Of a DNA stretch of 64,000 nt, positions 4,901 through 59,123 are shown one piece after another. The stretch's first letter is position 1. Each line of letters begins with the position of its first letter. The DNA comes from an uncultured Desulfobacter sp. GTDB taxonomy: Bacteria; Desulfobacterota; Desulfobacteria; Desulfobacterales; Desulfobacteraceae. The notes under the pieces were generated by a model. That model searched no databases. It was given only the letters and a program-made list of their open reading frames with translations, and had not been told where the DNA came from. Position numbers and translations under genes: made by a program. The stretch covers positions 6,272,001-6,336,000 of the forward strand of contig OY762069.1 in the NCBI GenBank assembly GCA_963665095.1. The letters run 5' to 3'.

Positions 4901-5240
4901 GTTTTATAAAGGGGATTACTTCAGTGATGACCCCTATCTGGAAGAAACAATCCTGGAGCGGGAAATGTATCGGAGAGCATGTATCGATATTCTGGAGCGG
5001 TCTGCAGAGATCCACAAGGCCCGCAACCTCTGGCAGAATAGGGTGGATACCTGGCTGCGGATTCTGGAGATTGATGCCTGCCATGAGGCTGCCTGTCAGA
5101 ACCTGATGATCCTGTACGGCCATGCGGGCATGAAAGCCGAAGCACGCCAGATCTATGCCAGGTGCTGTAAGGCACTTGAAGCGGAACTGGACATTGAACC
5201 GGACAACCGGACCCGGGAGATTTACAGCCGGCTGGCATAA
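1950..5240 (+). CDS. MalT-like ATPase/TPR transcriptional regulator with C-terminal wHTH and BTAD (SARP-type) domains
   Basis: P-loop GQAAQGKST, Walker B IVLDD, TGGW motif and helical repeats. C-terminal TLGPF...VPKEVLMDILWP and YKGDY...E..CQNLM..LEAELDIEP. GTG at 1950 has AGGAG upstream; the ORF track starts at TTG 1926. Confidence 0.85.
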   Translation: MPHRQFHIPVLPDVLARPRLYLTLSSCPHCRIILVTGQAAQGKSTLVADYLKREKAPCLWFHLSASLSDSGTLFDLISQGMESLNGPNGQTSSLPHVSLGTRQDLSRQSEILVAAMTRMPGPLNIVLDDMESLAPDAPSLALIQTLVAESPRHVRFFLLSRTRLRLNLSRFKMNQELLELGNQELAFTLEEIQAFFAETAQPESGPLDLEDAQKVMTATGGWAGGLILVSEAVRQSRNLNGLPAQISTEIISYFSQEIYQNLAADVRAFLRQTALFDELDTRMLSLIFPGTDPVEMLTWLEQRNLFIQKIIPHSQWPVFRYNNLFREFLLADLKHACKRQEIETLNRQIGQVFWEEKDHEKAISFFMAAGACDMVAKILRIKGKDYVITGRTDRLARWIDALPERISREDPWLILFRTVAERIQGGKKNIQVFSRTLEMFREQGDIRGGLLSLAYLIEACVFIRRPPWELLRHIEAGEKLMASLGGEYRFTWAKILLWQQIGLGYIAGTGDIFKGISACRNAILLAQGIQNPALVLSASVIMTLGLVQSGDFAAAREILGKTRTISQEESQPEYRALENITNIDLALKRGDTRHAGELLARSEADIEKFGLIFLYPGLVEAQALYHACSGRHGQAVQAADHLIDFSILTGNDFYQGISHRVKAVACLLNGDPGGACAEAENAVKELGRARRGEFHIIQARQIYGIALYRQGQNRDACEALEPVLEYFRGIHSNLSFCETAFILGAALVDSGEKSNRDAAARYFTQGFELAVKNQYSYFPLLDAELMAGVIVRAWETLVSPEVLLTSFITDFLTPETHAAIRGLLSEIYAKKDAERFTPLFRAACPRLFISTLGPFSVIQGGSVLPTSGFGGPKPLMFLKVLLLNGSKDVPKEVLMDILWPGADESAGEKNLKINIHRVRKALEPFAVKQFGHIYLIQKGGRISLAPDLVHVDTEAFTSLVSRGRTLESEGDRDGALDCYSKAAGFYKGDYFSDDPYLEETILEREMYRRACIDILERSAEIHKARNLWQNRVDTWLRILEIDACHEAACQNLMILYGHAGMKAEARQIYARCCKALEAELDIEPDNRTREIYSRLA

Positions 5241-5666
5241 TCCGGGAAAATAGAGCGCCAACGCCGCCCTTCTGGTCTGGGCACAGGGATTTTATTCATT
5301 GCAGGCAACCCTGGCTTAAGCGCCGGATGATAGCAGGTTCAAGTTGCGTTAATACATTATTACAGGATGCATTTGCCATAAAAAAAATTATCATTAAAAC
5401 AAGTTATTCGCCTGGGCTATAGGCTATACAGGCCAGATATCATTGTGTTCATTGGGAATCTGTGAAGAACAAAATTCAGAACGAAAAACTTTCTTTGATT
5501 GTCAAATTTACATTGAAATTTTCAACTATAAATGTTTAATCTTCAGCTGGAATCTGATCCTGAACCATAAAAAGATGTCCATTTTATGTAAGCAATATGC
5601 TGCTAGGATGGAAATATAATATTCAAAATCAAAACATGGAAAATTTTCCACTCCTTTTCCACGTTT

Positions 5667-5753
5667 TATAGATAATATCATGATAGCTGGAAAATTAGGC
5701 CACTTATATAGATTGATATCATGACAATTTTCCATCTATCACAACTGTTAACC
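5667..5753 (+). other. Candidate attI-like site at the start of the cassette array
   Basis: Core site GTTAACC (5747-5753) is the exact reverse complement of GGTTAAC, which closes cassette 1. No attC hairpin lies upstream, but there are imperfect direct repeats TATAGAT..ATATCATGA at 5667-5683 and 5707-5724. Confidence 0.45.
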
Positions 5754-5774
5754 TAATAAAAATAAAAGCCCGTC

Positions 5775-7052
5775 ATGAATGATATTATAGCTACAGCAGA
5801 GACAGATCTTATCCCTTTAATTAATCGAGCAGTTATGAATGTCCGTGAAGATATGAGGGATAATCCATATATTTTAGAAGCAATAAAAGTATTGCCTGTC
5901 CAGGGATATCGAAGTGCAATTGGCGCTTTCTGGAATGCTGTTGTAGACGATTTGAGAAATAAAATTATCTTCAGAAGCCTGACTCTTTTCAATAAAGAAA
6001 TTCAACCTCAACGTGAAATAAAAACATACGAAGATTTCCAGAATTATATTAACGATGATCAGTTGATTGAAGGAGCATATAAAATTGGGGTTATAGGATG
6101 GGAAGCATATAAAATCCTCAAACATTCTAAAGAAACACGGCATATTTTTTCAGGCCACCCAAGAAGTAGTGAGCCTTCATTGGTAAAAGTATTAGCTGTC
6201 ATTGATGATTGTATAAAATATGTGCTAAATGAAGAATATCCGACACAAATAATTGATATTGATGATTATATTGAGACTCTAAAGGCAGAAGCGTTCGATA
6301 GAAATACATATGCAATTGAAAATGCACTAGGTGATTTACCTGAAACTTACAAGAATGAACTTATAAATAGACTGTTCAGAATCTATATCCATCCTGACTC
6401 ATCAAGTACGTTGATATCGAACATTGAGTTTGTATCACCCCTTTTATGGAAAGTTCTGCCAAAACCGATAAAAATACAAATAGTTCGCAGGCTTGATCAA
6501 GAAATCCCAAAAGGAAATGTTGAGGTAACCAACAAGGCATTTGCTTTTATCAAAATCGTGGGTGGCATGATTTATTTATCACACAATGCCAGGCAATATA
6601 AAATTCAACCACTTGTGGATCGACTCAAAGCAAATTTGGATAATTGGGAAGTTGAAAATAAATGCGTAAGGGCTTTGAGCCAATACGCTTCAGTTATAGT
6701 TGACGAATGCATTGATGATTATGTTTCAGCCTTGACATTGACATATGTCGGTTATGTTGGGGGGAGTTCAAGATTTTCTCGGACAGATTTTTATGCAAAC
6801 GGAGCAGCTTCATATATACCGGATATGTTTCAAGTTTTTAACGATAGGATGGCAGCATCATTTATCAGGACGATTAGAGAAAATTCTCTTCTCAAAGGAA
6901 GACTTCGAAGCCCATCAAAGATAAAAAGGTTAAGAAGTCTTGGATTAATTGTGGATGAAAAAGTCTCCGATGCTTTTGAGGAGAGAGAGTTACTCTCTTT
7001 ATTGGTTGATGAATCAAAAGAATCTGATTTTTTCAATGCTATAAAAGGTTAA
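5775..7052 (+). CDS. Cassette 1: hypothetical protein with an N-terminal HEPN-like domain
   Basis: AT-rich 425-aa ORF with EAIKVL..GYRSAI..WNAV and an R-x5-H motif (RHIFSGH). Its stop codon lies inside the attC R'' box. Confidence 0.6.
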   Translation: MNDIIATAETDLIPLINRAVMNVREDMRDNPYILEAIKVLPVQGYRSAIGAFWNAVVDDLRNKIIFRSLTLFNKEIQPQREIKTYEDFQNYINDDQLIEGAYKIGVIGWEAYKILKHSKETRHIFSGHPRSSEPSLVKVLAVIDDCIKYVLNEEYPTQIIDIDDYIETLKAEAFDRNTYAIENALGDLPETYKNELINRLFRIYIHPDSSSTLISNIEFVSPLLWKVLPKPIKIQIVRRLDQEIPKGNVEVTNKAFAFIKIVGGMIYLSHNARQYKIQPLVDRLKANLDNWEVENKCVRALSQYASVIVDECIDDYVSALTLTYVGYVGGSSRFSRTDFYANGAASYIPDMFQVFNDRMAASFIRTIRENSLLKGRLRSPSKIKRLRSLGLIVDEKVSDAFEERELLSLLVDESKESDFFNAIKG

Positions 7053-7063
7053 CAATCCGCTGC
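7047..7063 (+). repeat. attC1, left part (R'' box, spacer and start of L''), interrupted by intron 1
   Basis: GGTTAAC-AATCC-GCTGC, matching the start of intact attC2 (TAACAATCCGCT). Confidence 0.75.
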
Positions 7064-7368
7064 TCGTGCCCAGATTGTTGAGTCGCATTTTATCCTGACT
7101 TAAATTTTCTAATTATTTTGAACAGATTAAATCTTTTCCATATTATTTAAGACAGCTACAGAAGTCGCTGCGCTCCTTCTCAGTAGGTTTTTAAGGCATA
7201 GGCAGAACAGCTTGAATAAAGCAGAAAGGGGAAGCAGGTAATCCCCACTTCCCCTGGCGCATTATTCAATGCTGCCTGCTTCCGGCTATCCCTTACCAGG
7301 TTGCTCCTCAGCAGAGCCCGGCTCCGTTTCACCGAAATCGTAATATTCTGCTCTATGGCTGTTTTTTC

Positions 7369-8178
7369 TTAAAAAATCTCCGATGAAGCAATGCGGACAT
7401 GCTCTGCAGATACCGTCATTGATTTTTCTGCCGCAGCAGCAATCAATGAGCCTCTGGCAAGATTATTCGCCTTTCGTAAAAGGCCGCCGGAGCCTTGATG
7501 AATCGCAGTCACCGCCTGGTCAGAAAAAAAGTTGGTGTCAACACCGCATAGTTTTAAATGATGGATCAGGTAAGTTTTCATTCCAGCCACATCCAGACCA
7601 TCCAGATGGCTTTTAGCCACAATCCTGGATGCAAACGGGATTGACGTCCGGTACTGAAGCTTATCTATCAATGTCGGCTGACCTGCAAGGATCACAGGCA
7701 GCCAGGGCATGGCGTCTTTTTCAAATTGAACCAGGGTGTGAAGTTCGGCAAAGACTTCCATGCGAAGCAGAGATGCCTCATCTATAATCAAAACGGTTTT
7801 GATCTTTTTTCCCAGGACGAATTCACGTATTTCATTTTTAATAATGGAGATCATAACAGCGCGGGACGTCGATGTCCGCTCTATGCCCAGTTCTTCAACA
7901 ATCTGCCGGTAAAGTTCCATGATGGAACCGCTTGAGGCCGTAACATAAAAGACTTTGTATTCCGAAGGGTGTAGGGATGAGGCGGCATACCTTAAGGCGG
8001 TGGACTTTCCGCTGCCCACATCCCCTGTGATAACCGCACTGCAGCCAAGTCTTAAGGAATAATCAATCCGATTTTTAACGCCCGAGACCTCCGGGGTAAC
8101 CAGGATATCATTAATTTCTATCTGCGCCGGGAAGGCCTCCCTGGATAAGCCAAAAAAGGTGCGATACATTTCACTCAT
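7369..8178 (-). CDS. ExeA-family AAA ATPase (transposition helper)
   Basis: Walker A GDVGSGKS, Walker B LIIDEA and LAGQP. Its start overlaps the transposase stop. Confidence 0.9.
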   Translation of the reverse strand: MSEMYRTFFGLSREAFPAQIEINDILVTPEVSGVKNRIDYSLRLGCSAVITGDVGSGKSTALRYAASSLHPSEYKVFYVTASSGSIMELYRQIVEELGIERTSTSRAVMISIIKNEIREFVLGKKIKTVLIIDEASLLRMEVFAELHTLVQFEKDAMPWLPVILAGQPTLIDKLQYRTSIPFASRIVAKSHLDGLDVAGMKTYLIHHLKLCGVDTNFFSDQAVTAIHQGSGGLLRKANNLARGSLIAAAAEKSMTVSAEHVRIASSEIF

Positions 8179-9431
8179 AACAGTTGCCCTCCCTTGTAAT
8201 TTGAGGGTTCAGGCATAATCCGGATATCATTTTCGTTCCAGCGGTGCCGCTTGACCCGGCAGTTCACAGCAAGGTCCACCGGGGTTAACAAGCCATAAGA
8301 CTTTGCTTTATAGATAACTTCAGCCTGCAAAGGGGTGTCCTCATGGTACTTTACATCCACATGTCTGCCGATCAGCGCAACCGGGGCCTCAAACATGTTG
8401 CCGTCAAGGGTTATGGTTCGGTCCTTTGCCACCTTGCGCCGGGCGGTTTTGCGGAAGTGGTCTTTCAGATCCGGTGGGGCGGTACGGATGCACTCCATGG
8501 CCGAGGTAAATCTTTTAAACGGTGATTCGCCTGTGGAGCTGTGTTTACGCTGATGGTACTCATTATGAAGCCACTTCTCAAATGCCCCATTCAGATCATC
8601 CAGGGTCTTACCTGTAAATCTTTGCAGAAACTGAAGCCGAACCGTTCTGAACCAGCGCTCGATTTTACCTTTCCCCTGGGGCTTATATGGCCTTGCATGG
8701 ATTAAAGCGATGGACAGAGACGCTGCTACATATTTTAAATGATGGGATCTGAACGCAGGACCGTTATCTACATACAGCTTGCGGGGAAGCCCACGGCTCA
8801 AAAAAGCCTGCTCCAGCACCATAAGATAGGTCTTCAGATTCTCAGATAAATAAAAACCTGCAGCCGTAACCAGCCTGGAATGATCGTCCATAATGGCAAT
8901 CAGGTACGTTTTTCTTTGCTTATCCTGAACCAGGACTGTAGGGCCGTGCATGACGTCGCTTTGCCACATATCATTGGGGTGCGGGGCTTCAAACTTTCTT
9001 CTATCCTCTGGCCGGGCCGTGTTCATTAGCCCCCGGCCGCGTAAAAAACGGTATACACTGGATGGACTGTATGTCTGGCATGTAGTTTTTTGAAGTGAAC
9101 AGATCAATGTATCGACTGTCGCATCAGGCTGGTCTAACCGGAGTTTGATTAGTTGAGATGCAGTCTCGTCATCGAATACCCTTGATTTTCCCTGGTCTGA
9201 ACGGTCTTTGGGGTAAAGAGACTCTATTCGACCGTTATACTGCCGGACCCATCCCAGAATCGTACTTCTGGAAAGCCTGGTCCTTCCAGAATACGGGATG
9301 GACCATTTGCGGGCGCACTTCTGCTGTAAAATTCGTTCTTTTTCACCGTAATCAAAATTTGTTCCGGTCACAAATTCACAAATGACCCCAAACCTGAACA
9401 CGGCAACCTCATTTTTCTGATTTTCTGTCAT
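8175..9431 (-). CDS. DDE-type integrase/transposase (rve core, Mu-like C-terminus)
   Basis: WQSD, MDDHSR, YVDNG and GKIER motifs, with an N-terminal HTH. Confidence 0.92.
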   Translation of the reverse strand: MTENQKNEVAVFRFGVICEFVTGTNFDYGEKERILQQKCARKWSIPYSGRTRLSRSTILGWVRQYNGRIESLYPKDRSDQGKSRVFDDETASQLIKLRLDQPDATVDTLICSLQKTTCQTYSPSSVYRFLRGRGLMNTARPEDRRKFEAPHPNDMWQSDVMHGPTVLVQDKQRKTYLIAIMDDHSRLVTAAGFYLSENLKTYLMVLEQAFLSRGLPRKLYVDNGPAFRSHHLKYVAASLSIALIHARPYKPQGKGKIERWFRTVRLQFLQRFTGKTLDDLNGAFEKWLHNEYHQRKHSSTGESPFKRFTSAMECIRTAPPDLKDHFRKTARRKVAKDRTITLDGNMFEAPVALIGRHVDVKYHEDTPLQAEVIYKAKSYGLLTPVDLAVNCRVKRHRWNENDIRIMPEPSNYKGGQLL

Positions 9432-9534
9432 ACTTCCTCCTTAAAATTTGGTTCTAAGGGCTTGTATGACAGTATGATCCTTCGGTAAATCACAGCCTTC
9501 GGTAGGGTGGTTTAAACCTGATCCAGCCCCATGG

Positions 9535-9981
9535 TTAAATTGAACTGGTAACCGGGATTTTACCCATACCGATTAGCTTGATAAAACCAGCAACCACACC
9601 TTTGTCCCAACTGTTGGACAGGTAGGCCGCTATATTTCGTTTCAATGCAGTAAACCAAAAATGCTGTCGGTTCCAGGAGAGTTCCGGCAGATACCGGTCA
9701 GTGTATAGACGACTCATAATGCTGGTAAGGATTTGCCAGATACTGGCCTGGAACCTCTTGAAAAAACCATATGGCTTCAATTTGAATACGGTTTTGCAAT
9801 AGGGGCAGCGATATCGCTTCAAATACACCCCTTGATCAAATCCATCAAAAAAGGAGAGTACAAAGCCGTGTCCCCACAGCCTGGAGTCGTTGCAATGTGG
9901 ACATCGTGACGGTTTTGGCCATGTAAAATTTTTGCCCTGCTTGAAAATTTGCTTGATATCAGCTTTGACCTTTATTATCAT
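9535..9981 (-). CDS. Transposon-associated Zn-ribbon protein (DUF6431-like)
   Basis: CPHC..LWGHG..RYRCPYC, first gene of the element. Confidence 0.7.
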   Translation of the reverse strand: MIIKVKADIKQIFKQGKNFTWPKPSRCPHCNDSRLWGHGFVLSFFDGFDQGVYLKRYRCPYCKTVFKLKPYGFFKRFQASIWQILTSIMSRLYTDRYLPELSWNRQHFWFTALKRNIAAYLSNSWDKGVVAGFIKLIGMGKIPVTSSI

Positions 9982-10173
9982 TTTTATGGTTGTTTTGGGA
10001 TTTTATAAATCCCGGTCTTAAGGGCGAGGCTCTGCAAAGCTTTTCGCCCTTTTCATTTTTGTCAGAATGCTTTGATCAGAACCTGTACAGGATAATTTGA
10101 GAAAAATGGAACTTTGTCAATTTAATATGAAAAATTTGGCGGGTTTTTGTTCAGGTTATTTCGGGAATCTACA

Positions 10174-11073
10174 CACGGCTTTCGTTCAAAGCACAACCAG
10201 CACATGGCTGTCGCTGAGATACGTCAAAAGTGTTACGAGCTGAATATAAACTGGATTTTAAGCGCAGATATTACCGGTCTATTCGATAATATTGACCATG
10301 GTCTACTCCGGGAGGCGATACGAATCAGGGTAAATGATGGCGGCATCTTACGGCTGGTCGGCAAGTGGCTGAACGCCGGTGTACTCGAAGGTGACAACAT
10401 TGAATATCCAGATAAAGGAACGCCCCAGGGCGGTGTGATTTCACCAGTACTCAGTAACATCTTTCTGCATTACGTGCTGGACGACTGGTATGTCAAGACG
10501 GTTCAACCGCGTATGAAGGGCAAGTGTTTCCTGATTCGATTTGCCGATGATTTTATCATCGGGTTTCAATTGGAATCAGACGCCCAAAGACTGATGGAAG
10601 TGCTGCCAAAGCGTTTTGAGCGGTATTCCCTGTCTCTTCATCCACAAAAGACACGTCTGATACCTTTTGGAAAGCCGACGCAAAAGGGTAAACCCCAAGG
10701 GACCTTTGATTTTCTTGGGTTCACATATTACTGGGGCAGAAGCCTGAAAGGCAACTGGGTGATCAAAAAGAAGACCGCGCGTAAAAGGCGCAATCGCTTT
10801 ATGCGCATGCTATGGAGTTGGTGCAAGGCAAACAGGCACGAGACCTTACGCGAGCAGCATGAAACACTGTGCAGTAAGCTTAAAGGGTATTATCAATATT
10901 TCGGAGTACGGGGTAACTATAAGGTACTGGAAGTGGTGTACGAATACGCCTTAAAAGCCTGGAAACATTGGCTTGGCAGAAGACATCGGAACGGCAAGCT
11001 CAGCTTCAGGAAGTTTGGTAAACTTCTTGCCCGCTATCCGTTACCGTCGCCACGGATTGTACACAATATCTGA
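10174..11073 (+). pseudogene. ltrA: Group II intron reverse transcriptase/maturase, N-terminally truncated
   Basis: Begins abruptly at HGFR (RT2) immediately after the transposon end. Has ADITGLFDNI, GTPQGGVISP, RFADDF, FDFLGF and an X domain; no endonuclease domain. Confidence 0.9.
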
Positions 11074-11230
11074 AATGACCTGTAGGGTAGCAAAGTTATA
11101 CGCCAATCGGGGTGTCGCCTGGTTGGTTGACGGCTCGGTAAAAAGAGCCTGAATCGAGGAACCGTATGAGGGAAATCTTCACGTACGGATTTGTGGGGAG
11201 GGCGTCGGGTAACCGATGCCTTTACCCGGA

Positions 11231-11340
11231 AGCCGACCCGGGGGGCTAGCGGCTTTTCGAAAGCCCTTGGTTTTCGAAAAAACTTGGCTTCGATAACCTG
11301 CTTGGTTATATGCCCCGGCCGGCTGAGCTCCCCGTTCTCT
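11231..11340 (+). repeat. attC1, right part
   Basis: AGCCGACCCGGGGG...CCCCGGCCGGCTGAGC-TCCCC-GTT, colinear with and similar to attC2. Confidence 0.8.
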
Positions 11341-11355
11341 AAACGGAGGATCTAC

Positions 11356-11781
11356 ATGAAAAAAATCTTTATAATTTTAATGATGTTTATCATGTTTTTA
11401 CCGAATATTTGCATATCAGGAACATCTGACCCATATAGTTCAATCATGCATTTAGGCGAGATAGCAAGAAATGCTATCCCAAAAGAAAAACCGGGAAGAT
11501 TAAGAGCGTATCTGCTTCCTGTAGGTCAAAAAAAGAAACAATCTATAAAAGATCTGACTGAAGCCTTGAGTCTTGAAAAAGGAAGAAGTGGATATTTTGC
11601 ACTGTTGTCATATGATCAAGAAAAATTAGTATCAACAATTCTGGCAGTCCTTCCCACTATCGAAAATAGATGCTTTTGCAAACTTTCTGTAATATATGTT
11701 GGGTCTAAACGGCATAAAGATTTAATCTCAAACGCCTTTTTACATACAGGTGCTACGTTTATATTTAAAGAATATAGATAA
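11356..11781 (+). CDS. Cassette 2: small hypothetical exported protein
   Basis: GGAGG ribosome-binding site, ATG at 11356 and a MKKIFIILMMFIMFL signal-like N-terminus. Confidence 0.7.
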   Translation: MKKIFIILMMFIMFLPNICISGTSDPYSSIMHLGEIARNAIPKEKPGRLRAYLLPVGQKKKQSIKDLTEALSLEKGRSGYFALLSYDQEKLVSTILAVLPTIENRCFCKLSVIYVGSKRHKDLISNAFLHTGATFIFKEYR

Positions 11782-11796
11782 GGAATCGAAATAAAA

Positions 11797-11925
11797 ACAT
11801 AACAATCCGCTACCGGCCGACCCGGGGGGCTATCGACTTTTTGAAAGTCCTCGGTTTATGAAAGGACTTTGCTTTTACAACGCGCTCGGTAACTTGCCCC
11901 CGGTCGGCTAGGCTTATCGTTGGCT
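11797..11925 (+). repeat. attC2 (intact, about 129 bp)
   Basis: ACATAAC-AATCCGCT..GCCGACCCGGGGG...CCCCCGGTCGGC..TTATC-GTTGGCT, with an internal AAAGTCCT/AGGACTTT stem. Confidence 0.8.
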
Positions 11926-11973
11926 TTCAAAATCCCGACAAAGAATCATGAATCAAATTTTCGTTTGAACTTC

Positions 11974-12006
11974 TTGACAGAATTTAAAATAAATGTACAA
12001 TTGTAC
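11974..12006 (+). promoter_or_regulatory. Sigma70 promoter of the toxin-antitoxin cassette with overlapping palindromic operator
   Basis: TTGACA-16 nt-TACAAT, with perfect palindrome GTACAATTGTAC at 11995-12006. Confidence 0.7.
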
Positions 12007-12008
12007 TT

Positions 12009-12401
12009 ATGAGGATAATAGCAGATACAAATACATTTTTGGCAGTTACTTTATACGAACCGGAAAGAGACCGCATTATCAATCTTTCTATAGGGCATGA
12101 ACTGATCGCACCAGAAGTACTACCGTTTGAAATTGGTAATGCTTTATCTGCCATGCTGAAAAGACAAAGAATAAGCAAAGAAGAACTGCCTGATATTTGG
12201 CATGCAACTCAAAAGATACCTGTCGATCTGCGAAGTATTGATATTCCTCAAGCTCTTGAGATTGCCTCTGAATTTAATATCTATGCTTATGATGCCTATT
12301 TTCTGACATGCGCTCTTTCTCTGCACAGCCCGCTACTTACCCTTGATCGTAGAATGATCGAAGTCGCAAATAATTTAGGTATACAGACTTTGGAGGTATA
12401 A
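12009..12401 (+). CDS. vapC: Cassette 3: VapC-family PIN-domain toxin
   Basis: IIADTN, E at PFEIGNA, YAYDAY and LLTLD acidic PIN motifs; 130 aa. Confidence 0.88.
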   Translation: MRIIADTNTFLAVTLYEPERDRIINLSIGHELIAPEVLPFEIGNALSAMLKRQRISKEELPDIWHATQKIPVDLRSIDIPQALEIASEFNIYAYDAYFLTCALSLHSPLLTLDRRMIEVANNLGIQTLEV

Positions 12402-12403
12402 CA

Positions 12404-12628
12404 ATGAAAGTATTTACATACTCAGAAGCTCGACAAAAACTATCCACGGTCTTGGATATGGCACGATCTGAAGAAGTGGTGATAAAACGTCGAGGGGGAG
12501 AAATGTTTACCGTGCTATTTAAACAGGCCCCAAAATCTTCCCCATTTGATGTGCCTGGAGTAAAAACTAAAGCCTCTACAGGTGATATTCTTGATGCTAT
12601 TCGAGATTCACGCTCACGGAATATTTAA
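12404..12628 (+). CDS. Cassette 3: Phd/YefM-family antitoxin
   Basis: TYSEARQKLSTVLD..EEVVIKRRG, 74 aa, 2 nt after vapC with a GGAGG ribosome-binding site. Confidence 0.85.
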   Translation: MKVFTYSEARQKLSTVLDMARSEEVVIKRRGGEMFTVLFKQAPKSSPFDVPGVKTKASTGDILDAIRDSRSRNI

Positions 12629-12630
12629 TC

Positions 12631-12690
12631 AAATAACAAGCACACGGCATTGCACCGGACTCGCGGTGCTCGCCGGTGAATTTTACGTTA
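12631..12690 (+). repeat. attC3 (short type); its R' box is interrupted by intron 2
   Basis: AAATAAC...TGCACCGG..CCGGTGAA-TTTTAC-GTTA. Joined to GAT at 13525 it gives a canonical GTTAGAT. Confidence 0.7.
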
Positions 12691-13524
12691 TCGCGCCGAG
12701 CAAAGCTCGGCGTATCTTGCAGGGTGAAAGTCCCTGTCGGATGAAATCCAGTAATGGGTTTCAGCAAGGGTTAGCCACCCACCCGTATCGAGCCTTGGAC
12801 CCATGGCGGAGATATACCGGCTATTGTAAGTTAGGACGCTAAGTAAACTTGGCTGGAAACGAGCTGCACCCGGAATCCCGAATAAAAGTGCAGATGGACT
12901 CACCCAACTGAAAGATCAATAAAAAGGATATCGAACAAGATGGGTTAAGCGTAGGCAGAGCATCCTGTAGGCCGCAGGGGAGACCGCGTTCCCTGAAGTG
13001 CTGGTACAGCTTCGAGAGAGCAACCCGCGGACGCCGAGGGTTTTAACGGTCGCCGAAGGCAACACAGAAGCATCCGTAATCGGCGAGGATGTGAAGGTCC
13101 GCCGGAGTCAACAGGCCGTGGCATGCAGGAAGAGATACGCTGTAGAACTCGGGAAGCCCCATTGTGCTCCTGGCATGAATTATACAAAATTCAGGTGGGT
13201 CGTTGCAAAGCGGCTATATGCCATTGGGGTGTCTTATCAGGCATAGTACTCAGAGGTTGGGAAAGCCGGCCACACACATGCGTACACCATGCATGTAAGG
13301 GAAAGGACCTGACGGAAGGACGTAGCCCACAAAGGAAACTCGTGCCGGACATGTAGGGCTGGATAACATGAGCCAACCTCACTGCGGGGAATAGCAATTG
13401 GATCTTGTAACGGGTAACTGTGAAGGTCCGCGCGGAAGCGAGTCTAACCGAAGAACTGGATGCGGGAAAACCGCACGTCCGGGACTGTGCGAGGGGCGCT
13501 GGGTGACTGGCGTTCCTACCGCGA
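12691..13524 (+). mobile_element. Group II intron 2, ORF-less (intron-encoded protein deleted internally)
   Basis: Domain I landmarks (GGTGAAAGTCC, TAAGCGTAGGCAG, GAAGGCAAC, GGCATG, GAACTCGGGA), domain V GAACTGGATGCGGGAAAACCGCACGTCCGG and domain VI ending TACCGCGA. Only PTSLRGIA codons of the protein remain. Confidence 0.85.
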
Positions 13525-13597
13525 GATCTTCTAAAAACAACGTTGATGGCATAAAGTATGAGTTTAAAAAAATATGGTCTTACAATGCGGAGCAACT

Positions 13598-13903
13598 ATG
13601 GTTACTTGCTATCTAAAATATGTGATTGATCCTTATAAAATCAAAGAGTTCGAAGTTTATGCAAAAATGTGGATACCTTTGGTAAATAAATTTGGTGGAA
13701 CTCATCATGGATATTTTCTACCGCATGAAGGAGCGAATAATATTGCGGTCGCTTTATTCAGCTTCCCATCTCTTGCAGATTATGAAACCTACCGAAATAA
13801 AATGTGGAAAGATTCAGACTGCATGAAAGCATTTGAACATTCTGAAAAAACCAGATGTATCGTTAGTTATGAACGTAGTTTTATGAATCCGATTTTTGAA
13901 TAA
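13598..13903 (+). CDS. Cassette 4: NIPSNAP-family protein
   Basis: MVTCYLKYVIDP..FEVYAKMW..GGTHHGYFLPHEGANNIA..FPSLADYE, with GGAG upstream of ATG 13598. Confidence 0.85.
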   Translation: MVTCYLKYVIDPYKIKEFEVYAKMWIPLVNKFGGTHHGYFLPHEGANNIAVALFSFPSLADYETYRNKMWKDSDCMKAFEHSEKTRCIVSYERSFMNPIFE

Positions 13904-14015
13904 AAAAAACAAAGGGCTTAGGGCACGACGCAGTGCGGAGCAGGACAGCCAGGGTAATCACATCTTATTACTTCTGAACGTATTGAAAGGAGGGCTTGCC
14001 ATGGTCCTGCCCAAA

Positions 14016-14080
14016 GTCCAACGAAACGCTGAAGTCCGATCCGGGTAATTTAGCGGCTTTTTGAAAGGCCCTGTTGGGAC
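14016..14080 (+). repeat. attC4, truncated/degenerate
   Basis: GTCCAAC-GAAAC-GCTGAAGT-CCGATCCGGG..TAGCGGCTTTTTGAAAGGCCCT matches the left half of attC1/attC2; the right arm is missing. Confidence 0.55.
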
Positions 14081-14113
14081 CTGTCAGGCGCAAGTCCCAC
14101 ATGGGTCAATCCG

Positions 14114-14139
14114 GGTCCCGGTTTTTTACCCCCGGGACC
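14114..14139. terminator. Hairpin between the convergent cassette array and fdhE
   Basis: GGTCCCGG/CCGGGACC stem. Confidence 0.4.
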
Positions 14140-14164
14140 TCAGATAACCGTTGAATTATCATTT

Positions 14165-25100: not shown

Positions 25101-25378
25101 ATTATTTTGACATTCTTGGCGTGCCTCAGGATGCCTCACCCGCAGAGATTAAAAAAGCCTATCACAGGCTTGCGTTTCAACACCATCCCGATTATTCCGC
25201 CCGAAAACGAAAGAAAAAAGAATTTATCCGGATCATCCAGGCATATCACACCCTCATTGATCCGGTGAAACGTTCAGAATACATGAATTCACAATCTTCT
25301 GCAGTCACCTCTGCACCCCGGGATTTCCTGACAGAATACTGGAACCAACTATTCCGGCAGGGCGGCATCACTAAATAA
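25097..25378 (+). CDS. Short J-domain co-chaperone, AtcJ-like
   Basis: NYFDILGV..EIKKAY..HPD; 93 aa; C-terminal P-RDFLTEY-W is a PX7W motif. Confidence 0.85.
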   Translation: MNYFDILGVPQDASPAEIKKAYHRLAFQHHPDYSARKRKKKEFIRIIQAYHTLIDPVKRSEYMNSQSSAVTSAPRDFLTEYWNQLFRQGGITK

Positions 25379-25434
25379 TTGGGGTCAGAGTAAAATTAAA
25401 TTTGCAAATTTAATTTTACTCTGACCCCAATTAT
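25375..25434. repeat. 60-bp perfect palindrome (REP-like, possible bidirectional terminator)
   Basis: ATAATTGGGGTCAGAGTAAAATTAAATTTG|CAAATTTAATTTTACTCTGACCCCAATTAT, with no spacer. Confidence 0.9.
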
Positions 25435-58842: not shown

Positions 58843-58940
58843 AACCTTTGCTGGGGGCGCTTTAAACGGCTGAGAAGAAAACGTGCAAGTTTTCTGACCC
58901 TTGGAACCTGATGCGGATAATACCGACGCAGGGAAGCGGA
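58843..58940 (+). promoter_or_regulatory. TPP riboswitch
   Basis: GCTGGGGG..GGCTGAGA..ACCCTTGGAACCTGATGCGGATAATACCGACGCAGGGAAGC upstream of thiM, with TTGACG-17-CATAGT at 58800-58828. Confidence 0.95.
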
Positions 58941-59123
58941 TATAAAAACGGCTGGTCTGCCGTTTTATTCACGCCTTATTAATTCCCTGTAAAACAGCTT
59001 TTTTATTCCTGCCCGGGTTCCGTGGTGCCGCTTTTAATCCTATCCCTGACAAAATTCACGGGCTGACTTGAACGCCGGATAGAAGGACAGTTTGAGGCAG
59101 CCTGAAGGAGAGCCTGTTTATCT

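What the first reader, a model, noticed from the sequence alone, without database searches (positions are those of the whole stretch)
7064..13524. Two group II introns enter attC sites on the top strand with non-canonical TCGYG...GA ends
Seen: removing 7064-11230 restores GGTTAAC-AATCC-GCTGC|AGC, a canonical L'' box that pairs with GCTGAGC leaving one extra base. Removing 12691-13524 restores GTTA|GAT, a perfect GTTRRRY. Both introns start TCG(T/C)GCC, end with a 7-nt ACC...GA instead of AY, and have an AAC rather than AGC domain V triad. In intron 2 the putative EBS1 TAAT (13077-13080) can pair with the exon end GTTA. Known: the well-studied IIC-attC introns insert on the bottom strand. Inference: a different intron lineage that targets two distinct positions of attC sites and blocks cassette recombination at those sites.
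Basis: partly seen in the sequence, partly recalled or inferred. Interest (0 to 1): 0.75.

Follow-up and report, generated by a model that had tools for sequence, protein, structure and literature searches.

The report
Class E introns invading attC sites
Two defective self-splicing mobile introns sit in the gene-sense strand of integron recombination sites, each lineage at its own fixed position, and both carry a rewired catalytic core whose unusual bases come as matched compensating pairs.

Summary
Real, with corrections. Both elements are group II introns, co-oriented with a cassette array that has no integrase nearby. Intron 1 (7064-11230) splits the L'' box of attC1; an IS481-like element (7076-10173) removed about 1.15 kb of it. 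Intron 2 is ORF-less and ends at 13526 (…ACCGCGAGA), not 13524, so the restored core is GTTA|TCT. The two introns are two separate RT clades near labelled class E introns, not IIC-attC. Relatives keep the same positions: EBS1 pairs with the exon end (5.65/6 versus 3.96 permuted) and sites are strongly attC-enriched, though a hairpin is not obligatory. The UCGYG…GA ends and AAC triad are compensated: J2/3 U goes with AAC in 30 of 30 introns, and gamma-gamma' pairs in 28 of 28. Near-identical multi-copy relatives show recent mobility. Only intron 1 destroys its attC; intron 2 leaves the hairpin and would ride with the next cassette. Class E fragments in a cassette array are in print (PMC7923331), and this scan noted similar introns on other DNA; the positions and core covariation were not found in eight searches.

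The parts
5747..5753 (+). GTTAACC core at the start of cassette 1, exact reverse complement of attC1 R''
   Evidence: sequence
5775..7052 (+). Cassette 1 ORF, 425 aa, no Pfam or NCBIfam family
7047..7063 (+). attC1 5' half: R'' GGTTAAC 7047-7053, spacer, L'' nt 1-5 GCTGC 7059-7063 (= IBS1 of intron 1)
7064..7075 (+). Intron 1 5' remnant (12 nt, TCGTGCCCAGAT), identical to the start of full-length relatives L005/L006/L027
7076..10173 (-). IS481-like element, TGT...ACA ends, three ORFs (148 aa unknown 9535-9981; DDE transposase 8175-9431; AAA ATPase 7369-8178). 14 near-full copies in the genome; no target duplication here, 4-5 bp at the 12 other copies printed. It replaces about 1,150 nt of intron 1
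   Evidence: NF033577 208.7 bits, below cut-off 224
10174..11073 (+). 5'-truncated RT/maturase ORF of intron 1 (FADD motif, no endonuclease domain)
11157..11230 (+). Intron 1 domains V-VI: AAC triad 11160-11162, 5-nt DV loop, branch A 11224, end ...ACCCGGA
11231..11340 (+). attC1 3' half: L'' nt 6-8 AGC, L' GCTGAGC 11322-11328, R' GTTCTCT 11334-11340
11356..11781 (+). Cassette 2 ORF, 141 aa, no family hit
11797..11925 (+). attC2, uninterrupted, same family as attC1
12009..12628 (+). Cassette 3: PIN toxin (12009-12401) and Phd/YefM antitoxin (12404-12628)
12631..12690 (+). attC3: L'' ATTGCACC 12649-12656, L' GGTGAAT 12675-12681, R' GTTA 12687-12690 (IBS1 CGTTA). The AAC lies 11 nt from L'' instead of 5
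12691..13526 (+). Intron 2, ORF-less, 836 nt: alpha 12770-12778, EBS1 TAACG 13044-13048, alpha' loop 13076-13086, EBS3 A13110, J2/3 TTA 13234-13236, about 1.26 kb of DIV/ORF missing relative to L034, AAC triad 13454-13456, branch A 13518, end ...ACCGCGAGA
13527..13529 (+). Last three bases (TCT) of the restored R' core GTTATCT; T13527 = IBS3
13598..13903 (+). Cassette 4 ORF, NIPSNAP family; intron 2 lies at the 5' end of this cassette
14016..14156 (+). Probable attC4 (R'' GTCCAAC, R' GTTGAAT); its bottom strand does not fold into one canonical hairpin at minimum energy

Best explanation
These are two non-autonomous remnants of two endonuclease-less, class E-type group II intron lineages that have each specialised on integron attC sites and reverse-splice into the top (cassette-sense) strand. 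Lineage L (intron 1) inserts between L'' nucleotides 5 and 6. Its EBS1 pairs with the 6 nt before the site and is re-tuned from intron to intron to the local L'' sequence, EBS3 reads the next base, and the R'' AAC sits at -13/-14. The insertion splits the attC and should stop excision at that site. Lineage R (intron 2) has a nearly invariant EBS1 (UAACG) that pairs with CGTTA of the R' core. It inserts 3 nt past the crossover, leaves the hairpin intact and becomes part of the next cassette. In both lineages the ribozyme core carries compensating changes: U1 with a penultimate G, gamma U with a terminal A, and J2/3 U with the triad's central A. Shown: boundaries, pairings, covariation, attC enrichment, recent multiplication of lineage-L relatives. 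Inferred: splicing at these junctions, the U-A base triple, the effects on IntI recombination, and any role of the hairpin or the protein in site choice.
For: Boundaries fixed by multi-copy relatives and empty sites. EBS1-IBS1: mean 5.65 of 6 pairs over 20 distinct EBS1 hairpins versus 3.96 permuted, 0 of 5,000 permutations reaching it. EBS3-IBS3: 29 of 31. attC score >=14 at 10 of 26 lineage-L sites (AAC-anchored background 10 of 1,500), 11 of 21 genomic lineage-R sites (GTT-anchored background 14 of 600) and 22 of 38 metagenomic lineage-R sites; GTT at -4 in 35 of 38. AAC at -13/-14 in 21 of 26 lineage-L sites versus 2.9% background. Core covariation: J2/3 U with AAC and G with AGC in 30 of 30; gamma-gamma' Watson-Crick in 28 of 28; 5 changes each on the RT tree; U1 with penultimate G in 12 of 12. 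Recent mobility: 8 of 9 copies in one genome within 1 nt of each other at different sites, and 5 of 7 identical in another. RT trees.
Against: Only 3 and 4 phylogenetically independent contrasts on supported branches, all in the predicted direction but not significant (sign test p 0.25 and 0.125); states were read by hand. L239 has J2/3 TTA with a tail ending GAC (possibly a chimera, unresolved), and 2 of 31 EBS3 pairs mismatch. attC is not obligatory: 1 of 8 scored sites of the most-copied lineage-L intron is a clear attC, and a nested subclade with TTGCG starts has 0 of 6. The attC score is my own heuristic, not IntegronFinder. EBS2 pairing with the R'' AAC is only about 3 bp, so how AAC is read is open. 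Class E monophyly has UFBoot 54 (0.992 in FastTree); lineage R joins Ac.ma.I1 at only 70. No RNA data and no empty allele of either exact junction.
Confidence: 0.72

Rival explanations
1. Pure sequence homing. Neither lineage recognises attC structure; EBS1/EBS3 (plus a protein preference for AAC) match motifs that are common in attC sites, and insertions persist there because arrays are tolerant intergenic space.
For: The most-copied lineage-L intron sits mostly at non-attC sites that still match EBS1 and often carry AAC or ACC. Lineage-R sites L106, L114 and L162 score low as attC.
Against: A 5-bp EBS1 plus one base is too little to give 22 of 38 strong attC calls against about 2% at GTT-anchored random sites. 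The background was anchored on GTT, not on CGTTA, and came from this genome only.
Confidence: 0.3
2. Structure-guided insertion like class C. Lineage R reads the top-strand attC hairpin 9-10 nt upstream through its protein, a mirror image of IIC-attC on the bottom strand, and EBS1 only sets the register.
For: Invariant short EBS1, no consistent EBS2 pairing, and a fixed distance to L'. IIC RNPs bind a DNA stem-loop upstream of IBS1 (PMC10190682 passages). EBS2 is dispensable for IIE splicing in vitro (PMC3753933 passages).
Against: It cannot apply to lineage L, which inserts inside the stem's 5' arm. About 40% of lineage-R sites lack a strong hairpin by my score (16 of 38).
Confidence: 0.35
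3. The odd ends and triad are decay or mis-called boundaries of dead introns.
For: Both window copies are defective (IS deletion; ORF loss; a C-to-T change in DV at 13457 against most other copies). An earlier scan note on an AAC triad was marked in doubt.
Against: The same states occur in intact, recently multiplied relatives and covary across the class. Boundaries are fixed by empty sites and by EBS1/EBS3 pairing.
Confidence: 0.05

Closest known systems
H.ha.F1 and H.ha.F2, class E intron fragments in a Halorhodospira halochloris CALIN (Sonbol and Siam 2021, PMC7923331; passages, sections 7 and 12, supplement 1 with sequences cut at 400 letters)
   Same: Class E introns in an integrase-less cassette array with attC-like hairpins upstream. 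By eye, the start of H.ha.F1 closely resembles intron 2 at about 13049-13160, and its protein tail resembles lineage-R IEPs.
   Different: Those are 5'-truncated, so no insertion point, EBS1 or termini were defined. The L''-splitting lineage and the core covariation are not described in what I read.
Group IIC-attC introns (S.ma.I2 type; PMC7923331, PMC4424553, PMC3001079, PMC8876359 passages)
   Same: Endonuclease-less group II retroelements that target attC. This genome has them too, at TTGT|GTGTG on the bottom strand.
   Different: Class C RT, bottom strand, R'' position, GUNYG...AU ends, opposite orientation. The window introns have class E-type RTs, use the top strand at L'' or R', have 5-6-bp EBS1 and UCGYG...GA ends.
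Class E (IIE) introns: Ac.ma.I1, Sr.me.I4, the R. etli Mim1 RT (class labels from the PMC4244168 table and PMC5894124 passage); Cl.be.I2 biochemistry (PMC3753933)
   Same: RT placement, no endonuclease domain, alpha' in a terminal loop, 5-nt DV loop. The R. etli intron L170 already has AAC with J2/3 GUA.
   Different: Ac.ma.I1 has GUGCG...AC ends and J2/3 GGA; L170 has GUGCG...GC. Neither was scored as an attC insertion.
UHB.I2 (CL1 class, PMC7923331 section 7)
   Same: Cassette-sense insertion at the 3' end of an attC; non-consensus ends (UUGCG..GU).
   Different: CL1 protein, AGC triad, insertion after the attC rather than inside R' or L''.

Membership tests
Group II intron | Domains V-VI with bulged branch A, and domain I | tested here: met
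   RF00029 at 11157-11231 (40.4 bits, gathering 40) and 13451-13525 (22.2 bits, below gathering); RF02005 at 12743-13118 (83.5 bits)
Group II intron | RT/maturase encoded in domain IV | tested here: met
   Truncated RVT_1 at 10174-11073; intact relatives pass TIGR04416; lost in intron 2
Group II intron | Consensus 5' GUGYG, 3' AY, and AGC/CGC triad | tested here: not met
   UCGYG, GA and AAC, each with a covarying partner
Group II intron | EBS1-IBS1 and EBS3-IBS3 pairing at the junctions | tested here: met
Group II intron | Self-splicing and retromobility | not testable with these tools
   Indirect only: near-identical copies of relatives at many sites; no raw RNA reads
Group IIC-attC | Class C RT | tested here: not met
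   Both lineages group away from this genome's IIC-attC RT
Group IIC-attC | Bottom-strand insertion at TTGT/T in R'', opposite to the cassettes | tested here: not met
   Top strand, at L'' 5|6 and R' GTTA|
Bacterial class E (IIE) | RT groups with labelled class E proteins | tested here: inconclusive
   Lineage L groups with Sr.me.I4 and R. etli Mim1 at UFBoot 100; lineage R with Ac.ma.I1 at 70; whole class 54 or 0.992. Only three labelled references, matched by plasmid and length
Bacterial class E (IIE) | No endonuclease domain | tested here: met
   Proteins end after the maturase domain; only RVT_1 precomputed for 120 of 120 listed homologues
Bacterial class E (IIE) | alpha' at the tip of a stem-loop in DId3 and a 5-nt DV loop (PMC3753933) | tested here: met
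   alpha' loop 13076-13086 complementary to alpha 12770-12778; DV loops GAAAT and GAAAA in the sequence
Integron attC site | R''-spacer-L''...L'-spacer-R' with one extrahelical base | tested here: met
   Restored attC1: L box 7 of 7, score 16. attC3: L box 7 of 7 but R'' mis-spaced. Heuristic score, not IntegronFinder
Integron attC site | Recombination by IntI | not testable with these tools
   The only IntI over the cut-off is at G000:910169-911113, far from this array

The most novel reading that the evidence does not exclude
Active group II introns have, several times independently within class E, rebuilt the supposedly invariant catalytic core in two steps (AGC/GGA to AAC/GUA, then G1...AY to U1...GA with a U-A gamma pair). 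Two such lineages have partitioned the attC site: one splits L'' and locks cassettes, and the other inserts just past the crossover, spares the site and spreads as cargo of excised cassettes.
Probability: 0.45. Interest if true: 0.76.

Novelty: new variant of a known kind. Interest (0 to 1): 0.6.

Why it matters
The AGC triad, the J2/3 G and the GUGYG/AY ends are treated as near-invariant and are shared with the spliceosome's active site. Natural, mobile introns with matched substitutions give a direct test of the catalytic-triplex and first/penultimate-base models, with intermediates (L170, L124) already in hand. For integrons, attC targeting was thought to be a class C speciality. Two more lineages with opposite predicted effects, one locking a cassette and one hitchhiking on it, bear on how cassette arrays freeze or carry passengers. 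Such introns also score at or below the Rfam cut-off (40.4 and 22.2 bits), so they are probably under-annotated.

Tried and rejected
This loop varies among relatives while the target stays CGTTA, and it is complementary to the alpha loop. 3) A canonical ...GAGAT end by sliding the junction one base: possible in this window alone, because the intron and the 3' exon both begin TC. Rejected because relatives with a G or A after GAGA show matching EBS3 changes and EBS1 fixes the 5' site. 4) One lineage, or a single origin of the U/A core: an RT tree forcing the 17 U/A-type rows together is rejected (p-AU 4.9e-79); swaps of RNA and ORF were not excluded. 5) Strong EBS2 pairing to R'': only about 3 bp in lineage L and none consistent in lineage R. 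6) Intron 2 as a chimera: both ends match the same full-length relatives L034 and L147. 7) An empty allele of the exact junctions: no contig skipped either intron in four runs, and the downstream cassette gave only one short 48-nt match among 40 relatives. 8) A helper protein for intron 2: no lineage-R RT in G000 at E<=1e-110. 9) My first strict attC test called only 9 of 32 and 7 of 21 sites and missed attC3 itself; it was replaced by a graded score. 10) Minimum-energy folding of intron 2 (z -2.7) recovered DV/DVI but not the EBS1 hairpin; not used. 11) The 93-row tree did not finish; 62 rows and 42 rows were used. 13) Promoter scan of 5200-5800: 3 sites versus 2.7 expected.
Full report
Setting. 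The window is G000:C1:6272001-6336000. Positions 5747-14156 hold an array of four cassettes (a 425-aa unknown, a 141-aa unknown, a PIN/Phd toxin-antitoxin pair, and NIPSNAP) separated by attC sites. The only integron integrase over the NCBIfam cut-off is at 910169-911113, so this array is a CALIN. The closest RT relatives are mostly from Desulfobacterales MAGs.

Intron 1. The span 7064-11230 is mostly not intron. Positions 7076-10173 are an IS481-like element with 14 near-full copies in the genome. The 12 other copies printed have 4-5-bp target duplications; this one has none. Full-length relatives have about 1,165 nt between their start and the point where the window's RT resumes, so about 1,150 nt (domains I-III and the start of the ORF) were lost, probably by IS-adjacent deletion (inference). 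The remaining 12 nt match the start of L005, L006 and L027. The boundaries are right: empty sites of this attC family read GCTGCAGGCC or GTTGCAGCC, and four contigs of another run join ...CGCTGC at 11231. Nine near-identical copies in one genome and seven in another diverge exactly at TCGCG and after ACCCGGA.

Intron 2. Domains I-III, V and VI are present. About 1.26 kb of domain IV is missing relative to L034, and both ends match the same full-length relatives. First, EBS1 is the loop between GCCGA and GAAGGC. In intron 2 it is TAACG (13044-13048), pairing 5 of 5 with CGTTA. In lineage L the same loop follows the exon end: mean 5.65 of 6 pairs over 20 distinct hairpins versus 3.96 when exons are permuted, with 0 of 5,000 permutations reaching it. 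Second, the 3' end is 13526. Relatives continue GAGA in 20 of 23 genomic ends (the other 3 end GAC) and 40 of 41 metagenomic tails. The EBS3 base pairs with the base after GAGA in 29 of 31 cases, in three pair types, versus 22 of 31 under the shorter boundary; the figures in genomes are 12 of 14 versus 5 of 14. L034 has a head-to-tail GCGAGA|TCGCG junction, and a contig of run X7 stops at 13526. Related sequences are not independent, so the permutation values overstate.

Target preference. With a graded score of my own (L box, inner stem, R'', R'), 10 of 26 lineage-L sites with TCG or TTGTG starts reach 14, against 10 of 1,500 AAC-anchored random sites. For lineage R, 11 of 21 genomic sites reach 14, against 14 of 600 GTT-anchored sites, and 22 of 38 metagenomic sites (38 of the 80 loci had enough flank; GTT at -4 in 35). 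Lineage L has AAC at -13/-14 in 21 of 26 sites (background 2.9%) and always cuts after L'' position 5 when the site is an attC. The preference is not absolute. A nested TTGCG-start subclade has 0 of 6, and the most-copied intron has 1 of 8 clear attC sites. Lineage L therefore seems to read sequence (EBS1, EBS3, plus AAC by weak EBS2 pairing or by the protein). For lineage R, a 5-bp EBS1 seems too little to explain the enrichment, so a hairpin contribution as in class C (PMC10190682 passages) remains possible.

Effect on recombination (inference from attC chemistry). Intron 1 separates R'' and L''(1-5) from the rest of attC1, which otherwise folds as a long hairpin (-26.0 kcal/mol), so that site should be dead. 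Intron 2 lies 3 nt past the G|TT crossover. The L''/L' stem is the same with or without it (-13.8 versus -13.2) and R' changes only in its last base. It should not block a sound attC and would leave with the downstream cassette. attC3 itself has its AAC 11 nt from L'' and may be poor regardless.

The core. Both lineages have J2/3 = UUA. In 30 introns on the tree, J2/3 position 2 is U whenever the triad is AAC and G whenever it is AGC (30 of 30). J2/3 position 1 (gamma) is complementary to the last base in 28 of 28 (U-A, G-C, A-U). U1 goes with a penultimate G in 12 of 12, and G1 with A in 5 of 6 (states read by hand). J2/3 and the triad form the catalytic triplex, and gamma pairs with the 3' splice site (PMC6224600 passages), so these are the expected partners. 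That J2/3 position 2 contacts the central triad base, and that the first and penultimate bases interact, is recalled from the structural literature. Each trait changes five times on the tree, always together, but only 3 and 4 contrasts lie on supported branches (sign test not significant). Intermediates exist (AAC with GUA and C-ending: L170, L090, L124, L130). A single origin of the U/A state is rejected on the RT tree. One discordant locus, L239, is unexplained. Eight of nine copies within 1 nt in one genome show that this core is compatible with recent mobility. Both window copies are non-autonomous, and no lineage-R protein was found in G000.

Class. FastTree (62 rows) puts both lineages in a clade with three labelled class E proteins (0.992), sister to class D. 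IQ-TREE (42 rows) gives 100 for lineage L with Sr.me.I4 and the R. etli protein, 70 for lineage R with Ac.ma.I1, and 54 for the whole class. Labels come from the PMC4244168 table (parts 1 and 4 read) and a PMC5894124 passage. They were matched by plasmid and protein length: firm for Ac.ma.I1 (432 aa), probable for the other two. The RmInt1 identity of L173 rests and a recalled length. They are not IIC-attC; this genome has those separately on the bottom strand.

What is in print. PMC7923331 (passages, sections 7 and 12, supplement 1 with sequences cut) reports 5'-truncated class E fragments in a CALIN and a CL1 intron in cassette orientation, without the positions or termini found here. PMC4424553 (passages) lists only AGC or CGC triads and attC targeting by class C. 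PMC4028801 (passages) says class E/F boundaries are often mispredicted; its boundary figure was unreadable. PMC3552965 (parts 1-3; supplements listed only) and PMC3001079, PMC8876359 and PMC5737381 (passages) add nothing on this. Eight searches found no description of L''-splitting or R'-core class E introns, or of the AAC/UUA/GA set. Simon 2008 and Leon and Roy 2009 were not held and Toro 2002 was not seen; they may already show some of these features. This scan's notes record sense-strand attC introns and swapped-core introns on other DNA. They are unchecked, and one was marked in doubt, which prompted the independent-contrast test.

Verdict. A real feature, a new variant of a known kind: class E-type introns with a compensated non-canonical core and two distinct attC entry points. 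Interest 0.6.

Noticed in passing
G000:C1 924183, 2929636, 3345635, 3901492: Canonical IIC-attC introns at TTGT|GTGTG on the bottom strand of the same attC families, so this genome's arrays host at least three attC-entering intron types.
   Followed up: partly
G000:C1 935504-936291 and 937747-939512: Two more lineage-L copies at the same L'' position, both internally deleted (788 and 1,766 nt), near the intI at 910169-911113; a lineage-R 3' fragment at about 5207008-5207071.
   Followed up: partly
L005/L035 (G011) and L034: One attC is hit by both lineages: an L-type intron in L'' and an R-type intron in R' of the same site.
   Followed up: partly
L034 about 5765; L176 about 2642: Head-to-tail intron junctions (...GCGAGA|TCGCG and ...CCCGGA|TCGCG), which independently mark both termini.
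   Followed up: partly
L134 (NZ_OX359238.1): An intron with the same U...GA/UUA/AAC core sits in what looks by eye like an IS66 transposase gene, not an attC; the core variant is wider than the attC specialists.
   Followed up: partly
L103, L104, L105, L108, L109, L117, L118: ORF-less lineage-R introns of 715-845 nt occur in at least seven genomes; L104 (90% identical) lacks the same part of the ORF region, suggesting a spreading non-autonomous form.
   Followed up: partly
window 7076-10173: A three-ORF IS481-like element with an AAA ATPase, 14 near-identical copies in the genome plus 13 copies of a related end at 80% identity.
   Followed up: partly
window 12631-12648: attC3 has six extra bases between AAC and L'' compared with its sibling at G000:912519, just downstream of a toxin-antitoxin cassette.
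   Followed up: no
window 58843-58951: TPP riboswitch.
   Followed up: no
window 25375-25434: Perfect 60-bp palindrome, 30-nt arms with no spacer; possibly an assembly artefact or a REP-like element.
   Followed up: no
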